DNA of 64,000 nt. Origin: an uncultured archaeon (lineage in GTDB: Archaea; Asgardarchaeota; Lokiarchaeia; Sigyniarchaeales; SOKP01). The stretch is taken from the NCBI GenBank assembly GCA_964493715.1, contig CAZBPC010000002.1:79470-143469 (forward strand), read 5' to 3'. Positions 2,951 to 6,620 of the stretch are shown here, piece after piece. Under the pieces are notes generated by a model. The model saw only the letters and a list, made by a program, of their open reading frames with translations, searched no databases and was not told the DNA's origin. A program made the translations under genes and the position numbers. The first letter of the stretch is position 1. Each line of letters opens with the position of its first letter.

Positions 2951-3169
2951 ATTCGTATCATTCCTCATATTAATCAACACATTTAGAAGAAAAATAATTA
3001 ACATTCCATTAAAAATTTCTGGAAAAGAATCATAAGTATACGTTTTAATAAGAATAAATCATTTGAAATATCTTAGTTGACAATAAATAGTAAATCTCTT
3101 CATATTTTAAAGAATTATACATGAGATACAATAGAAAAAATCAAGAAATAAACGTTAAAATGTGAGCCA

Positions 3170-3745
3170 ATGTCTGAAAAAGCCAAAGAAATGGAAGAAG
3201 AATTTTCATTCAAATGTCCTATTTGTAATAGTGGAACGATCGAAATAACTAAAACAGTTTATGATATGACTGACGGAGACAAGATGCTAATTGTTAAATT
3301 TGAATGCAATAAATGCACGTTTATAAAAAATGACGTGGTTCCATTAACAACTAGAATTGAACCCGGAATTATATCATTACAGGTGATGAATGAAAATGAT
3401 CTCAAATCTAAAGTTTATCGTTCACCAGTTGGCATATTAGAGATTCCTGAATTAGAAGTGTCAGTGGAACCGGGTCCACGTGCAGACTTTTATTATACAA
3501 ATATAGAAGGAATCTTGGAGCGATTTCAGAAAGCAGTGCAAATTTATCGAAATGATCTTGATGAAAATGAAGAAAAACAAGCAGAAATCGATGAAATATT
3601 AAATAATATTGATAAAGCTATGAAGGGTGATTTTAATTTCACCTTAAAGATAACTGATACGGGTGGAGGTAGCTATATAATTCCTCAAGATGAATCAAAA
3701 TATTCCTTTCAAAAAATAGATCTTCCTTTAACCATGGATGAGTAA
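3170..3745 (+). CDS. ZPR1 zinc-finger family protein
   Basis: CPIC..CNKC, IPELEVSVEPGP, TNIEGILER and DTGGGSYI. Confidence 0.88.
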   Translation: MSEKAKEMEEEFSFKCPICNSGTIEITKTVYDMTDGDKMLIVKFECNKCTFIKNDVVPLTTRIEPGIISLQVMNENDLKSKVYRSPVGILEIPELEVSVEPGPRADFYYTNIEGILERFQKAVQIYRNDLDENEEKQAEIDEILNNIDKAMKGDFNFTLKITDTGGGSYIIPQDESKYSFQKIDLPLTMDE

Positions 3746-3925
3746 AAAAGGAACATCATAATTTATTTGAATAGTTAATACTACTATGAGCTTTATTTTT
3801 CTTAAAAAATAAATTGAGATTTATAAAGATATAAAGATAAAAAATATTGAATAAATTTAATTTAAAATTAAGATGGTGAATTAACAGAGAAGATTTGAAG
3901 GAAATAAAAAAAATAGGAATAGATC

Positions 3926-5140
3926 ATTATAACAGATAAAAGTGAATTTAATTGTTCAGATCCTAATCGATCCAAAAGACAAGAAATTAATCCCGGGTTA
4001 TGTTATTTTGAATATCCTTTAAATAAATCTAGAAAGGATTTTCTTGACAAAGATGTTAATTTTTTAGAGATAATAGAATCAAAACATTATAATAGATGTT
4101 TAACTGACAATATTCAGACTTATCTAAAAAGTCTTGAGGGTGAAATCAGAATTTTATTCGAACCTTTCATAGAATTTAAGAATATGGGTGCACTTTTTGG
4201 GCTTCATAATAATTACATGCCAAATAATAGGATGTATAAAAATTGTAAAAAAATTATAGCTAAAAGTACTTTAGATGAAATGCGAGTTAATTTCAAAAAA
4301 AATATTGAAAATTACACAAAGAAATTTCCACATTTGGTAGAGTTATTATTATTGTTTCATTCTGAAATTTTGAAATTTATTAATGAATATGAGATAATTC
4401 TTCAACCAAAACCTACTCCAGATTATCAAATGTTCAATCACCATCCTAATCTTAAAAGAGATTATTTTGAAATAATTGATACATATGAAAAAGCGTACTG
4501 GCTTGGATTTCTATTTGCTGATGGATGGATAGCAATAGAACATAAAAAATCTGGAGATTATTATCGAATGGGGCTCCAATTATCATATAAAGACAAGGAT
4601 GTGCTTCAGAGGTTTTGTAAAAGTATTGGATTAAATCCTAAATATATAAAAAATCGTCTTGTTGGAAGTGATTTTAGCACAAAATTATATCATATAGGTG
4701 AAATTAGATGGGGAGATCAAAAAATAGCTCAAGATCTTGTAAAATTAGGGATAATATATGGATACAGTGAACAAAAAGGAAGGCGCGTTAAAACCCCTAG
4801 ACTTCCAATACTACAGAACCGAAAACTGATGTTGGCATTTTTATCAGGTTTCTATGATGGTGATGGCACTCTTGGATTTGATAAGAAGACAGGCAAAATT
4901 CGTCCAAGAATTGCCTCTTCTGAAATAGACTTTTTACATCAAATAAAGCAATATTTCGGAATAAAGTATCAAATTTCTACAACAGAAATGGTTAAATTTA
5001 ATATAAGAACAGAGAAAATGGTTAATATAATAGGTAGTAGACTAGATGTTGATAAAGAAATATTTAAAGAAATGTTAAGTATATTTAAGAATAGTCTTGA
5101 AAGAAAGAGAGTTCCAATAGATTTCTTTAATGAAAAATAG
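3926..5140 (+). CDS. Free-standing two-motif LAGLIDADG endonuclease-like protein with N-terminal extension
   Basis: Motifs AYWLGFLFADGW and AFLSGFYDGDGT. The frame is open for 87 codons upstream of ATG 4184, back to TAG at 3920-3922, so the start may be ATT 3926 or ATA 3929 (uncertain). Confidence 0.8.
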   Translation: MITDKSEFNCSDPNRSKRQEINPGLCYFEYPLNKSRKDFLDKDVNFLEIIESKHYNRCLTDNIQTYLKSLEGEIRILFEPFIEFKNMGALFGLHNNYMPNNRMYKNCKKIIAKSTLDEMRVNFKKNIENYTKKFPHLVELLLLFHSEILKFINEYEIILQPKPTPDYQMFNHHPNLKRDYFEIIDTYEKAYWLGFLFADGWIAIEHKKSGDYYRMGLQLSYKDKDVLQRFCKSIGLNPKYIKNRLVGSDFSTKLYHIGEIRWGDQKIAQDLVKLGIIYGYSEQKGRRVKTPRLPILQNRKLMLAFLSGFYDGDGTLGFDKKTGKIRPRIASSEIDFLHQIKQYFGIKYQISTTEMVKFNIRTEKMVNIIGSRLDVDKEIFKEMLSIFKNSLERKRVPIDFFNEK

Positions 5141-5224
5141 CAAGTTTTTTTTATAGATTGCTTTCTTATTAAAATTGTAAGTATTTAGGAGAAAAATTTG
5201 AATAGAATTAAAAAGGTAGATTTA

Positions 5225-6411
5225 ATGGCTAAAAATGTAAAGCGAATAGGAATTTTAACGGGTGGTGGAGTTTCATTTAAGATACATCTTTTTGAACCAC
5301 AGACTGTCCCGGATTAAATTCAGTGATTTATGGGATAATGCTGAAAGCTTACGATGCGGATGTAGAATGCGTAGGAATTCTAAAAGGATGGAAAGGTTTT
5401 GTTGAAAATTTAACGATTCCCTTAAACATTGCAGAACATGACGATCTTCATACCAAGGGAGGGACAATATTGTATACAAGTCGTACTAATCCATTTAAAG
5501 GAGTTGAGGCTAAAGAGGAAAAAGCAAAGCAATTAACTAATCAATTCAATGTGTTAGGTATAGATGCATTAATTGCTATCGGTGGAGATGATACTCTTGG
5601 AGTAGCAGATACCATGTATAAAATTGCTAATGCAAATGTAGTAGGGGTTCCAAAAACGATAGATAATGACTTGAAGGGTACTCATTACACTTTTGGGTTC
5701 TGGAGCGCTGTACAATTAGCTTCTAATGCGATGGATAATCTCACAACAACCGCACGTTCACACCAGCGTGTTTTTGTAGTTGAGATTATGGGAAGAGATG
5801 CTGGTTTTTTAACCATGTATAGTGGAATTTCAGCAGGAGCTGATATAATATTGGTTCCTGAAACCCCCTTTAGTTTAGAAAAAGATATTGTTGACGTACT
5901 CAAAAAAAGAGCTAATGCTGGGTATAAATATCACATCATTGCCACATCTGAAGGAGCTCATCCTCATATCGATTCATTAAATCGAGATTTCAAGACAATT
6001 TCAAAGGAAACAATTGATAAATTACCTAAAGATACATTTGGGAATCCTTTATTAGCAAAGTTAAACATTTCACAAATTATCGTTGATGAATTAAATTTAA
6101 GAGACGATCTAAAAGAAGTATTTCTCCAAAATGACGTCGAATTCGAATGCAGGAGCGTAGTTTTGGGACATACAATGCGAGCTGGAACACCTAATTCGTT
6201 CGATAGAATTTTGGGATTGAGATTTGGATTAGCAGCCATGAATATGGTTTTAGAGTCTAAATTTGGGAACATGGTTTCGCTTCAAGGTAATAAAATTAAA
6301 ACCATGCCGCTTTCGGAAGGGGTAAAAAAGAAATATATTACCTCAGATAGTGATAAAATGGAATTAAGAGATTTACTTGTAAAAGTGCGGTATCTATCGA
6401 AACAAAAATAG
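5225..6411 (+). CDS. pfp: 6-phosphofructokinase, probably PPi-dependent; split gene (exons 5225-5270 and 5303-6411, 384 aa when spliced)
   Basis: Spliced N-terminus MAKNVKRIGILTGGGDCPGLNSVI. GGTILYTSR, GGDDT, PKTIDNDL (Asp/Lys signature of PPi-type enzymes), MGRDAG and LGHTMRAG. Confidence 0.92.
5271..5302 (+). other. 32-nt BHB-type intron in pfk mRNA
   Basis: Central helix GTGG(5265-68)/CCAC(5297-5300), 3-nt bulges AGT and AGA, inner stems TTCA/TGAA and AAGA/TCTT. Removal restores GGA GAC TGT CCC. Confidence 0.85.
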
Positions 6412-6433: not shown

Positions 6434-6517
6434 TTATCCGAACTGCTTTTCTTCTTCCACATCGCTATCAAGAGTATTTTTCTCTAAATATCTGTCAAGC
6501 CCATTTTACGTTAGAAT
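6434..6517 (-). pseudogene. Relic of the 3' end of an acyl-CoA dehydrogenase allele
   Basis: Reads LDRYLEKNTLDSDVEEEKQFG*, compared with [21 protein letters not shown] at the end of ORF 7876..9120. Confidence 0.75.
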
Positions 6518-6620
6518 ACCACTTCCAGAAGGGGTAAAAAAGAAATATATTACCTCGGATAGTGATAAAATGGAATTAAAAGATTTGCTGGTAAAAGTTA
6601 GAGATTCATCTAAAAAATTA
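6516..6620 (+). repeat. Diverged duplicate of the pfk 3' end (copy of about 6304-6411)
   Basis: IPLPEGVKKKYITSDSDKMELKDLLVKVR versus MPLSEGVKKKYITSDSDKMELRDLLVKVR; long exact DNA match gaaggggtaaaaaagaaatatattacctc. Confidence 0.9.

What the first reader, a model, noticed from the sequence alone, without database searches (positions are those of the whole stretch)
5258..5310. 32-nt frameshifting BHB intron in the GGGDCPG motif of phosphofructokinase
Seen: ATG 5225 gives MAKNVKRIGILTGGG and then drifts to a stop. The continuation DCPGLNSVIYG is in another frame 32 nt later. GTGG/CCAC forms the central helix with bulges AG^T and AG^A, closed inside by TTCA/TGAA. The outer helix is weak (one G-C pair, or ACGG/CTGT). 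The predicted junction is GGA G|AC TGT. The rest of the gene has intact catalytic motifs and no other lesion, which argues against decay. Inference: a central glycolytic enzyme needs splicing to be made, which could be a regulatory point.
Basis: partly seen in the sequence, partly recalled or inferred. Interest (0 to 1): 0.92.

Follow-up and report, generated by a model that had tools for sequence, protein, structure and literature searches.

The report
Mini-intron splitting an Asgard phosphofructokinase gene
A 32-base insert that breaks the phosphofructokinase gene of a Loki-type Asgard archaeon has the shape of the introns that archaea cut out of their tRNAs, so the enzyme can probably be made only after its messenger RNA is spliced, which is known for very few archaeal genes.

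Summary
PFK (Pfam PF00365, E 1.4e-82) is split at GGG|DCPG by 32 nt (window 5271-5302). Removing them restores the frame and the motif.

The insert has bulge-helix-bulge (BHB) geometry: GTGG/CCAC central helix, 3-nt bulges AG|U and AG|A, inner hairpin TTCA/TGAA, and a weak outer helix. The cuts that this geometry predicts are exactly the ones the protein needs.

The window comes from a Promethearchaeota (Loki-type Asgard) genome that encodes two EndA paralogues. In relatives, 17 of 80 and 13 of 68 distinct PFK alleles carry a 31-32-nt insert at the same site, and others carry a 30-nt insert at GGD|D. The central helix pairs in 104 of 104 cells across 26 alleles, with compensatory changes. dN/dS is 0.03-0.07. 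Introns are about 80% identical while four-fold sites are saturated.

The genome's only RtcB gene carries a similar 29-nt insert.

The nearest PFK relatives (94% identical in exon 2) lack the intron. Homology to them resumes at the 3' splice site, downstream of a foreign segment that holds a LAGLIDADG endonuclease gene and exon 1.

No RNA data could be obtained, so splicing is inferred. A genome-wide scan found no excess of such introns. The proposed regulatory role has no support; a mobile intron is more likely.

The parts
5225..5270 (+). PFK exon 1: ATG to the first base of the Asp codon (MAKNVKRIGILTGGG + G)
   Evidence: All 6 intron-bearing same-genus alleles shown keep an in-frame start and the ..GILTGGG peptide.
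5271..5302 (+). 32-nt BHB-type intron; the cut sites can slide over 5269-5271 / 5301-5303
5303..6411 (+). PFK exon 2 (AC + CPGLNS... to the stop at 6409-6411)
   Evidence: PF00365, E 1.4e-82. dN/dS 0.026-0.067 against 9 relatives. 93.6-94.0% nt identity to the intron-less L138/L139.
5265..5268 (+). Central helix H, 5' strand (GTGG, exon 1)
   Evidence: Pairs with 5297-5300. Alignment columns 13-16/45-48 are paired in 104 of 104 cells of 26 alleles. Pair 14-47 is C-G in 24 alleles and U-A in 2.
5297..5300 (+). Central helix H, 3' strand (CCAC, intron)
5269..5271 (+). 5' bulge A G | U; the cut falls between its 2nd and 3rd base
   Evidence: Same geometry as tRNA-Gly(GCC) of this genome, which is cut after position 37.
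5301..5303 (+). 3' bulge A G | A; the cut falls between its 2nd and 3rd base
   Evidence: It is a clean 3-nt bulge only if the weak outer helix forms. The minimum-energy fold leaves 7 nt open here.
5272..5296 (+). Inner hairpin h': TTCA 5272-5275 with TGAA 5293-5296, plus the loop
   Evidence: In the six 32-nt-type alleles all 4 pairs form, and pair 23-41 is A-U in 4 and G-C in 2.
5260..5309 (+). Outer helix h (weak): 5260-5264 with 5304 and 5306-5309, U5305 bulged, two G-U pairs
   Evidence: Columns 8-12/52-57 are paired in 96.9% of cells, but this helix is not chosen in the own minimum-energy fold. Synonymous sites on both strands are fixed in intron-bearing alleles.
4184..5140 (+). Free-standing LAGLIDADG endonuclease ORF (318 aa), 84 nt upstream of the PFK start codon
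   Evidence: Pfam PF14528 E 2.3e-8 and PF00961 E 1.8e-5. Single copy in the genome. Homologues or remnants lie upstream of PFK only in intron-bearing alleles.
3790..5302 (+). Segment with no counterpart in the closest relatives: endonuclease gene, PFK leader, exon 1 and intron. It replaces 77 nt of L139. Both ends are approximate to a few bases.
   Evidence: blastn of own against L138/L139: homology over 3001-3780 and again from 5301. Alignment of the left edge. The last 31 nt of exon 1 are 68% identical, exon 2 is 94%.
6513..6617 (+). Remnant copy of the last ~35 codons of PFK, downstream of the stop codon
   Evidence: 80% aa identity, E 6e-10. (67 of 71 nt identical to 6316-6386). (82-84% to the PFK 3' end of L138/L139).

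Best explanation
The 32 nt at 5271-5302 are an archaeal bulge-helix-bulge intron inside the coding sequence of the only PfkA-type phosphofructokinase gene found in a Promethearchaeota (Loki-type Asgard) genome.

Proposed mechanism:
- In the pre-mRNA, exon bases GTGG pair with intron bases CCAC.
- This helix is flanked by two 3-nt bulges, an inner hairpin made of intron sequence and a weak outer exon-exon helix.
- The two-subunit splicing endonuclease EndA cuts between the 2nd and 3rd base of each bulge.
- RtcB joins the exons, giving GGA GAC TGT and a full-length enzyme with an intact GGGDCPG motif.

Shown here: the anatomy; that the predicted cuts fit the reading frame; conservation and covariation across alleles; purifying selection; and that the enzymes are encoded.

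Inferred: the cleavage and the ligation themselves.

The intron is a recent, laterally moving element rather than a conserved regulator. In this genome it arrived together with exon 1 and a LAGLIDADG gene.
For: 1. Frame and motif. Excising 32 nt restores GGGDCPG. Relatives carry 31 or 32 nt at the same site, and both lengths restore the frame.

2. Geometry. The cuts given by the BHB rule coincide with the junction the protein needs. Chance of such a motif per (site, length) is 1.85e-4, or about 5.5e-4 after allowing the three equivalent cut positions.

3. Same build as local tRNA introns. tRNA-Gly(GCC) has H 4/4, inner helix 9 bp, outer 7 bp, and is cut after position 37. tRNA-Thr, tRNA-Ala and tRNA-Leu introns of 29-39 nt have 4-bp central helices.

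4. Comparative support. In 26 distinct alleles the BHB register is paired in 98.6% of cells, against 31-52% when the partner is slid. H is paired in 100% of cells. Pair 14-47 is C-G in 24 alleles and U-A in 2. Within the six 32-nt-type alleles, pair 23-41 is A-U in 4 and G-C in 2.

5. Synonymous exon sites that build the motif are fixed in intron-bearing alleles. Position -8 is C in 16/17 against 3/63. Position -2 is A in 17/17 against 33/63. Position +2 is C in 16/17 against 11/63.

6. The gene is alive. dN/dS is 0.026-0.067, and only one PFK copy is found in the genome.

7. Introns are far better conserved than neutral sites: 0.83 identity against 0.40 at four-fold sites.

8. Machinery. There are two EndA paralogues (102 and 68 bits). 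Asgard EndA is described as the (alpha-beta)2 type with the L1 loop that accepts relaxed motifs (PMC5829648, passages).

9. A second case in the same genome. RtcB is split by 29 nt with H TTGG/CCAA, bulges AU|A and AG|A and a 9-bp inner helix. The insert is present in 2 of 29 evaluable loci.
Against: - No transcript evidence: no RNA run was listed.
- The own sequence does not fold better than shuffles (z -0.63).
- The outer helix needs a bulged U and G-U pairs, and the minimum-energy fold does not use it. The own 3' cut therefore lies in a loop of up to 7 nt, a relaxed motif.
- RNAalifold on 15 alleles preferred another register (columns 11-16 with 42-47). Own and L033 break that register.
- The double changes come from few lineages, so they represent few independent events.
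- The second PFK intron in relatives has a poor central helix (67.9% of cells paired, first pair never formed) and no compensatory change.
- The ligase that should join the exons is itself interrupted in this genome.
- A genome-wide scan found no excess of frame-restoring BHB motifs over shifted-cut controls.
Confidence: 0.8

Rival explanations
1. The insert is a small DNA-level mobile or recombination-borne element that only happens to look like a BHB. Either it is removed from the RNA by some other, unknown route, or the gene works in another way.
For: The distribution on the PFK tree is patchy (11 changes against a shuffled mean of 11.1). The insert sits at a recombination breakpoint next to a homing-endonuclease gene. 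Folding z-scores are weak. Intron 2 has a poor central helix.
Against: Mobility at the DNA level and splicing at the RNA level do not exclude each other; archaeal rRNA BHB introns do both (recalled). Without removal from the RNA the gene cannot encode GGGDCPG, yet it is under strong purifying selection. The BHB cuts fit the frame in both the 31-nt and the 32-nt forms.
Confidence: 0.08
2. Decaying or dispensable gene: the insert is a lesion and PFK is a pseudogene in this lineage.
For: The frame is broken. The own terminal branch on the PFK tree is rather long (0.20 against a median of 0.091).
Against: dN/dS is 0.026-0.067, no different from intron-less pairs. There is no other stop or frameshift in 368 codons. 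The same insert is kept in 26 distinct alleles that all have intact exons. Exon 1 keeps its start codon and peptide. No second PFK of this family is found in the genome.
Confidence: 0.04
3. Translational recoding: the ribosome hops over the insert or shifts frame within it, so no RNA processing is needed.
For: A GGA codon followed by a hairpin precedes the insert in all intron-bearing alleles (17 of 17). This superficially recalls the take-off site of phage T4 gene 60 (recalled).
Against: The Asp codon is split by the insert (G|AC). No Gly codon precedes the resumed frame, so there is no landing site. In the 31-nt form the codon before TGC is CAC, so hopping could not give Asp. Frameshifting would need opposite shifts in the 31-nt and 32-nt forms, and would put 10-11 unconserved residues inside the nucleotide-binding loop.
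Confidence: 0.03
4. Assembly or sequencing artefact.
For: The source is a metagenome-assembled genome of 160 contigs.
Against: Homologous inserts at the same site occur in dozens of independent assemblies from three collections.
Confidence: 0.01

Closest known systems
cbf5 pre-mRNA intron of Crenarchaeota (Sulfolobus, Aeropyrum)
   Same: [quoted passage not shown]
   Different: Different gene and phylum. Splicing of cbf5 is shown experimentally; here it is not. The cbf5 gene of this genome is uninterrupted. Here there are two insertion sites in one gene across relatives, and an adjacent homing-endonuclease gene.
HVO_1309 mRNA of Haloferax volcanii
   Same: An mRNA cut by the tRNA splicing endonuclease and found spliced in RNA-seq (PMC10485636, passages).
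   Different: It is a euryarchaeon with a homodimeric enzyme. I did not see whether that intron lies in a catalytic motif or is polymorphic.
tRNA introns of Asgard archaea
   Same: Same motif, same size range (17-39 nt in this genome) and same enzyme. Asgard tRNA genes are reported to be heavily interrupted, with repeated gains, and 44 of 60 genomes have two EndA paralogues (preprint 10.64898/2026.10.13.758758, start of abstract and passages).
   Different: Those introns lie in tRNA genes. In the passages I saw, the preprint uses protein-coding genes only as synteny markers. Similarity of the PFK intron to the local tRNA-Leu intron is not significant (20.65% of random segments score as high).
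Archaeal rRNA BHB introns that encode LAGLIDADG homing endonucleases (I-DmoI type; recalled, no call)
   Same: A BHB intron combined with a LAGLIDADG enzyme, and lateral spread by homing.
   Different: There the endonuclease gene lies inside a long intron. Here the intron is 32 nt and the gene stands free, 130 nt upstream.
Collaborative homing of phage group I introns with free-standing endonucleases (T4 mobE/I-TevIII; cyanophage F-CphI)
   Same: A free-standing endonuclease gene beside an endonuclease-less intron that interrupts a conserved coding site (PMC2790892 and PMC6083498, listing and start of abstracts).
   Different: Those are self-splicing group I introns in phages, with cleavage shown. 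Here the intron is protein-spliced, the host is cellular, and the target of the endonuclease is unknown.
HAC1/XBP1 unconventional mRNA splicing in eukaryotes
   Same: A short intron removed from an mRNA by an endonuclease, with the exons joined by RtcB (PMC8718801, start of abstract; the rest recalled).
   Different: The endonuclease is Ire1, not the tRNA splicing enzyme, and that splicing is a regulated stress switch.

Membership tests
Archaeal BHB intron (cut by EndA, joined by RtcB) | A 4-bp central helix with a 3-nt bulge on the 5' side, followed by an inner helix | tested here: met
   GTGG/CCAC, AG|U, TTCA/TGAA. H is paired in 104/104 cells of 26 alleles.
Archaeal BHB intron (cut by EndA, joined by RtcB) | A second 3-nt bulge on the opposite strand, closed by an outer exon-exon helix | tested here: inconclusive
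   AG|A is a 3-nt bulge only if 5260-5264 pairs with 5304/5306-5309, with one bulged U and two G-U pairs. That register is paired in 96.9% of cells, but the own minimum-energy fold does not use it. L033 folds with an outer helix, a 4-bp central helix, a 3-nt 5' bulge and a 9-bp inner helix; its 3' cut lies in a 3x3 internal loop rather than a clean bulge (z -3.2). This is a relaxed (HBh'-like) form.
Archaeal BHB intron (cut by EndA, joined by RtcB) | Cuts between the 2nd and 3rd bulge base give a functional product | tested here: met
   The junction GGA G|AC TGT restores GGGDCPG in both the 31-nt and 32-nt forms. The cut rule was checked on tRNA-Gly(GCC) of this genome.
Archaeal BHB intron (cut by EndA, joined by RtcB) | Pairing kept through compensatory changes | tested here: met
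   Pairs 14-47 (CG/UA), 20-44, 21-43 and 23-41 change on both sides. These are few independent events.
Archaeal BHB intron (cut by EndA, joined by RtcB) | The genome encodes the splicing endonuclease and the ligase | tested here: met
   Two PF01974 hits. One RtcB gene, itself interrupted by 29 nt.
Archaeal BHB intron (cut by EndA, joined by RtcB) | Spliced RNA, or the excised circular intron, observed | not testable with these tools
   No RNA run was listed; read laying was not used.
Free-standing LAGLIDADG homing endonuclease | LAGLIDADG domain(s) | tested here: met
   PF14528 E 2.3e-8 and PF00961 E 1.8e-5. Two LAGLIDADG-like motifs are visible in the translation.
Free-standing LAGLIDADG homing endonuclease | Cuts the allele that lacks it; presence/absence polymorphism at a fixed locus | tested here: inconclusive
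   The polymorphism at a fixed locus is met. The cleavage target cannot be tested here.
Programmed translational bypass (T4 gene 60 type) | Matched take-off and landing codons flanking the gap | tested here: not met
   No Gly codon precedes the resumed frame, and the Asp codon is split by the insert.
Self-splicing group I / group II intron | A ribozyme core of hundreds of nucleotides | tested here: not met
   The insert is 31-32 nt. The window has no Rfam hit at gathering score.

The most novel reading that the evidence does not exclude
Asgard archaea are gaining BHB mini-introns in protein-coding genes now, and the PFK intron spreads by collaborative homing. In this reading the free-standing LAGLIDADG endonuclease just upstream cuts intron-less PFK alleles at or near GGG|DCPG. 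Repair then copies endonuclease gene, exon 1 and intron into the cut allele, and the intron protects its carrier by splitting the target site.

This would be the first DNA-level mobility mechanism for a protein-spliced intron in a protein gene. It would also be a living example of intron gain in the closest prokaryotic relatives of eukaryotes.

In addition, the only RtcB gene needs RtcB to mature its own mRNA, which would make ligase supply self-sustaining.
Probability: 0.3. Interest if true: 0.9.

Novelty: new member of a known kind. Interest (0 to 1): 0.78.

Why it matters
A 2023 review names only two archaeal genes whose mRNAs are spliced by the tRNA endonuclease, and says more probably remain to be found (PMC10485636, passages). 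Seven searches of the paper library found nothing on BHB introns in Asgard protein genes.

What this finding adds:
- The first candidates in Asgard archaea, the lineage nearest to eukaryotes.
- Introns inside catalytic motifs of a central glycolytic enzyme and of the splicing ligase itself.
- Presence/absence polymorphism between near-identical genomes. That makes intron gain, its DNA-level mechanism and its cost directly testable.

It also matters for annotation. Gene callers will report such genes as truncated or as pseudogenes, so metabolic reconstructions of these MAGs may wrongly lack PFK or RtcB.

Tried and rejected

Genome-wide census in the own genome.
- 684,119 BHB-like candidates were found.
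- Excisions that join open frames (at least 12 codons each side, at least 200 in total, unspliced frame broken) numbered 38,256. With the 3' cut shifted by +1, -1, +2 and -2 they numbered 38,978, 38,249, 38,819 and 38,418.
- No threshold on exon length, helix length or G+C gave an excess. The best was 23 against 15-20.
- A paralogue test asked whether a protein from elsewhere in the genome aligns across the junction. It gave 529 against 528 and 538. In its strictest form it gave 9 against 13 and 8.
- PFK and RtcB are both recovered by the scan, but such introns are too few to show above the background of neighbouring-gene fusions.
- A motif-restricted list of 107 candidates was read by eye. 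The two that looked promising (C16:21340 and C13:16914) lie in frames that read through intact, so they are false.

Origin from a tRNA intron. Similarity to the tRNA-Leu(CAA) intron, which has the same GTGG/CCAC helix, is not significant.

Long co-conversion tracts. Intron-bearing alleles are more alike than others only in the first two 45-nt alignment windows, that is about 45 nt on either side of the intron site (0.79 against 0.72 and 0.68; 0.84 against 0.82 and 0.79). Further along the gene there is no difference.

PFK tree. The careful search did not finish in the time allowed, so a quick tree with many open forks was used. It cannot separate many gains from many losses.

Upstream inserts without a LAGLIDADG domain (L018, L030, L080, L085, L151, L161, L201, L204). 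None had a Pfam hit, apart from a sub-threshold SocA_Panacea match in L204.

A third intron. The extra 30 nt in L091-L100 is a real in-frame 10-residue insertion.

Supplementary files of papers were not consulted. Those of the Asgard tRNA-intron preprint might list inserts outside tRNA genes.
Full report
**What is in the window.** ATG 5225 opens MAKNVKRIGILTGGG. The frame then runs into VSFKIHLFEPQTVPD and a stop (ORF 5198..5317). From 5305, in another frame, CPGLNSVIYG... runs 368 residues to the stop at 6409-6411. This part matches Pfam PFK PF00365 at E 1.4e-82 over profile positions 11-276 of 277. Taking out 5271-5302 (32 nt) joins G5270 to A5303 C5304, giving GGA GAC TGT, that is GGGDCPG. 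Because AG precedes both cuts, three cut pairs are equivalent.

**The organism.** The window is G000:C2:79470-143469 of a 3.68-Mb, 160-contig genome with 31% G+C. Records carrying 72-88% identical PFK genes are mostly titled Promethearchaeota, so this is a Loki-type Asgard archaeon. The window has no tRNA gene and no Rfam match.

**Anatomy.**
- The central helix is GTGG 5265-5268 with CCAC 5297-5300.
- The 5' bulge is A G | U (5269-5271). The 3' bulge is A G | A (5301-5303).
- The inner helix is TTCA 5272-5275 with TGAA 5293-5296.

I recalled the BHB rule as a cut between the 2nd and 3rd bulge base, with the 5' strand of the central helix and two bulge bases supplied by the upstream exon. I checked it on this genome's own tRNAs. 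tRNA-Gly(GCC) has a 4/4 central helix, a 9-bp inner helix and a 7-bp outer helix, and is cut right after position 37. tRNA-Thr, tRNA-Ala and tRNA-Leu carry 29-39-nt introns with 4-bp central helices. The tRNA-Leu helix is also GTGG/CCAC.

Applied to PFK, the rule cuts after 5270 and after 5302, exactly where the protein needs it. In this genome, 1.09e-3 of the 625,299,100 (site, length) combinations have such a motif with at most 2 G-U pairs. Only 1.85e-4 have it with none, as PFK does.

The weak part is the outer helix. It needs U5305 bulged and two G-U pairs. The minimum-energy fold instead leaves 7 nt open at the 3' cut, and its energy is ordinary (z -0.63). The own motif is therefore a relaxed form. 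Asgard EndA is described as the two-subunit type with the loop that accepts relaxed motifs (PMC5829648, passages). This genome has two EndA paralogues.

**Relatives.**
- In whole genomes, 38 of 41 searched have the gene.
- Parsing 97 loci gave 80 distinct PFK alleles. Seventeen carry an insert at the same site (31 nt, or 32 nt in the own genome) and 63 do not. Fifteen of 78 carry a different 30-nt insert, with in-frame stops, at GGD|D.
- Of 80 metagenome loci, 78 could be parsed. Sixteen have the first insert and 17 the second.
- Both sites share the context GGYGGAG|AY.

For the first insert, 26 distinct alleles keep the BHB register in 98.6% of cells, against 31-52% when the partner is slid by 1-3 columns. 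The central helix is paired in all 104 cells. Pair 14-47 is C-G in 24 alleles and U-A in the own allele and L151. This is a synonymous GGC/GGU change in the exon matched by G/A in the intron. Among the six alleles of the 32-nt type, pair 23-41 of the inner helix is A-U in four and G-C in two.

Results against this reading:
- RNAalifold on 15 alleles preferred another register, which own and L033 break.
- The double changes come from few lineages.
- The second insert has perfect outer and inner helices (100% and 99% of cells paired), but its central helix pairs in only 67.9% of cells and its first pair never forms. It shows no compensatory change.

**The gene is in use.**
- dN/dS of the own exon 2 against nine relatives is 0.026-0.067, the same as between intron-less genes.
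- No second PFK of this family is found in the genome.
- Synonymous sites that build the motif are fixed in intron-bearing alleles and free in the others. Position -8 is C in 16/17 against 3/63, position -2 is A in 17/17 against 33/63, and position +2 is C in 16/17 against 11/63. At the second site, position -8 is C in 15/15 against 14/63 and position +2 is C in 15/15 against 10/63.
- Introns are 0.83 and 0.79 identical between alleles whose four-fold sites are only 0.40 and 0.42 identical.

So the inserts are either under selection or have spread recently. They are not decaying junk.

**Rivals.**
- Ribosomal hopping fails. The Asp codon is split by the insert, no Gly landing codon exists, and the 31-nt form has CAC before TGC.
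- Frameshifting would need opposite shifts in the two length forms.
- An artefact is excluded by dozens of independent assemblies.
- The insert is far too short for a ribozyme.

**A second case.** Looking for the ligase, I found that the only RtcB gene (G000:C2, minus strand, outside the window) is split into Pfam positions 1-47 and 48-426 by 29 nt. Excision gives GVGY|DINCG. That is the uninterrupted sequence in 27 of 29 evaluable relatives. Only the own genome and G001 carry the insert. It folds with TTGG/CCAA, bulges AU|A and AG|A and a 9-bp inner helix. The locus is otherwise colinear with an intron-less relative. The cbf5 gene, the classical intron host in Crenarchaeota, is uninterrupted here.

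**How common.** A scan for frame-restoring BHB motifs found no excess over controls with shifted cuts. A paralogue-based check found none either. Such introns are therefore rare in this genome, or too relaxed for my criteria.

**Mobility.**
- Intron states are scattered on a poorly resolved quick PFK tree: 11 changes against 11.1 for shuffled labels.
- The closest relatives of the own gene, L138 and L139, are 93.6% and 94.0% identical over the 1109 nt of exon 2. They have no intron.
- Homology to them covers window 3001-3780 and resumes at 5301, which is the 3' splice site. In between, about 1.5 kb replaces 77 nt of L139. The last 31 nt of exon 1 are only 68% identical.
- The foreign segment holds a 318-residue LAGLIDADG ORF (4184-5140), the leader, exon 1 and the intron.
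- Homologues or remnants of that ORF lie at the same place in L051 (82% nt), L069 (frameshifted), L018/L071 and L161/L162. All of these are intron-bearing. None is found in the 63 + 55 intron-less alleles.
- The spacer between the upstream ZPR1-like gene and the intron site is 110-170 nt in 62 of 63 intron-less alleles. It is 600 nt or more, or rearranged, in 6 of 17 intron-bearing alleles. In the metagenome set the upstream gene lay beyond reach in 4 of 9 evaluable intron-bearing alleles, against 1 of 51 evaluable intron-less ones. Those other expansions carry unrelated ORFs.

This pattern recalls collaborative homing of phage introns with free-standing endonucleases (PMC2790892 and PMC6083498, listing and abstracts). 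The endonuclease's target is unknown, and alleles are not independent, so I give this reading about 0.3.

**Comparison with what is known.** A 2023 review names cbf5 and HVO_1309 as the archaeal mRNAs spliced by the tRNA endonuclease (PMC10485636, passages). A 2026 preprint describes heavily interrupted Asgard tRNA genes, but in the passages I saw it does not treat protein genes. Searches for such introns in Asgard protein genes found nothing. This is a new member of a known kind, in a lineage and in genes where it was not expected.

**Verdict.** The BHB-intron reading is well supported but lacks RNA proof (confidence 0.8). The regulatory inference is unsupported. A recently acquired, mobile intron is the better description.

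Noticed in passing
G000:C2:12136-12164, minus strand (outside the window); loci L104, L106: The only RtcB gene of the genome is split by a 29-nt BHB-like insert inside the conserved GVGY|DINCG motif. The insert is present in the own genome and G001, and absent from 27 other evaluable relatives. The ligase would need splicing of its own mRNA.
   Followed up: partly
L011:1907-1936 (minus strand), L013:1784-1813, L018:1631-1660, L021:1784-1813 and others: A second, 30-nt insert with in-frame stops splits PFK at GGD|D in 15 of 78 distinct alleles, but not in the own gene. It has strong outer and inner helices and a poor central helix. Its insertion context GGYGGAG|AC is the same as at the first site.
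   Followed up: yes
window 4184-5140: A free-standing LAGLIDADG endonuclease ORF lies between the ZPR1-like gene and PFK. It is part of a ~1.5-kb segment that the closest relatives lack and that ends at the intron's 3' splice site.
   Followed up: partly
window 6513-6617: A remnant copy of the last ~35 codons of PFK lies 100 nt beyond the stop codon (67/71 nt identical to the real 3' end). It may be a scar of an earlier replacement of the gene. Relatives L139 and L140 carry about 1.1-1.3 kb between PFK and the downstream MFS-type gene that the own genome lacks.
   Followed up: partly
window 5261-5279 and G000:C35:24400-24418 (minus strand): The 19 nt across the 5' exon-intron junction recur exactly inside an unrelated, uninterrupted ORF, where they encode GGGVSF (blastn-short E 5e-4). 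Unexplained.
   Followed up: partly
L018:330-950, L085:779-1378, L030:865-1290, L080:548-1219, L151:262-1263, L201:323-1324, L204:3-905: The spot just upstream of PFK holds varied extra ORFs without Pfam families, almost only in intron-bearing alleles. It looks like a hot spot for insertions.
   Followed up: partly
whole genome G000: ARAGORN finds only 27 tRNA genes in a genome rated 100% complete, and 12 of them have introns, several at non-canonical positions. Many tRNA genes are probably too interrupted to be found.
   Followed up: no
L039 (DATKTW010000106.1) and several JBHL... records: A contig whose PFK is 86% identical to the own gene is titled Nanopelagicaceae bacterium. Others of similar identity are titled Hod-, Hermod-, Thor- or Odinarchaeota. 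The public labels of these bins look inconsistent.
   Followed up: no
L091-L100, about 200 nt into PFK exon 2: A 30-nt in-frame insertion adds a Lys/Glu-rich 10-residue loop in the more distant PFK clade. It is not an intron.
   Followed up: yes
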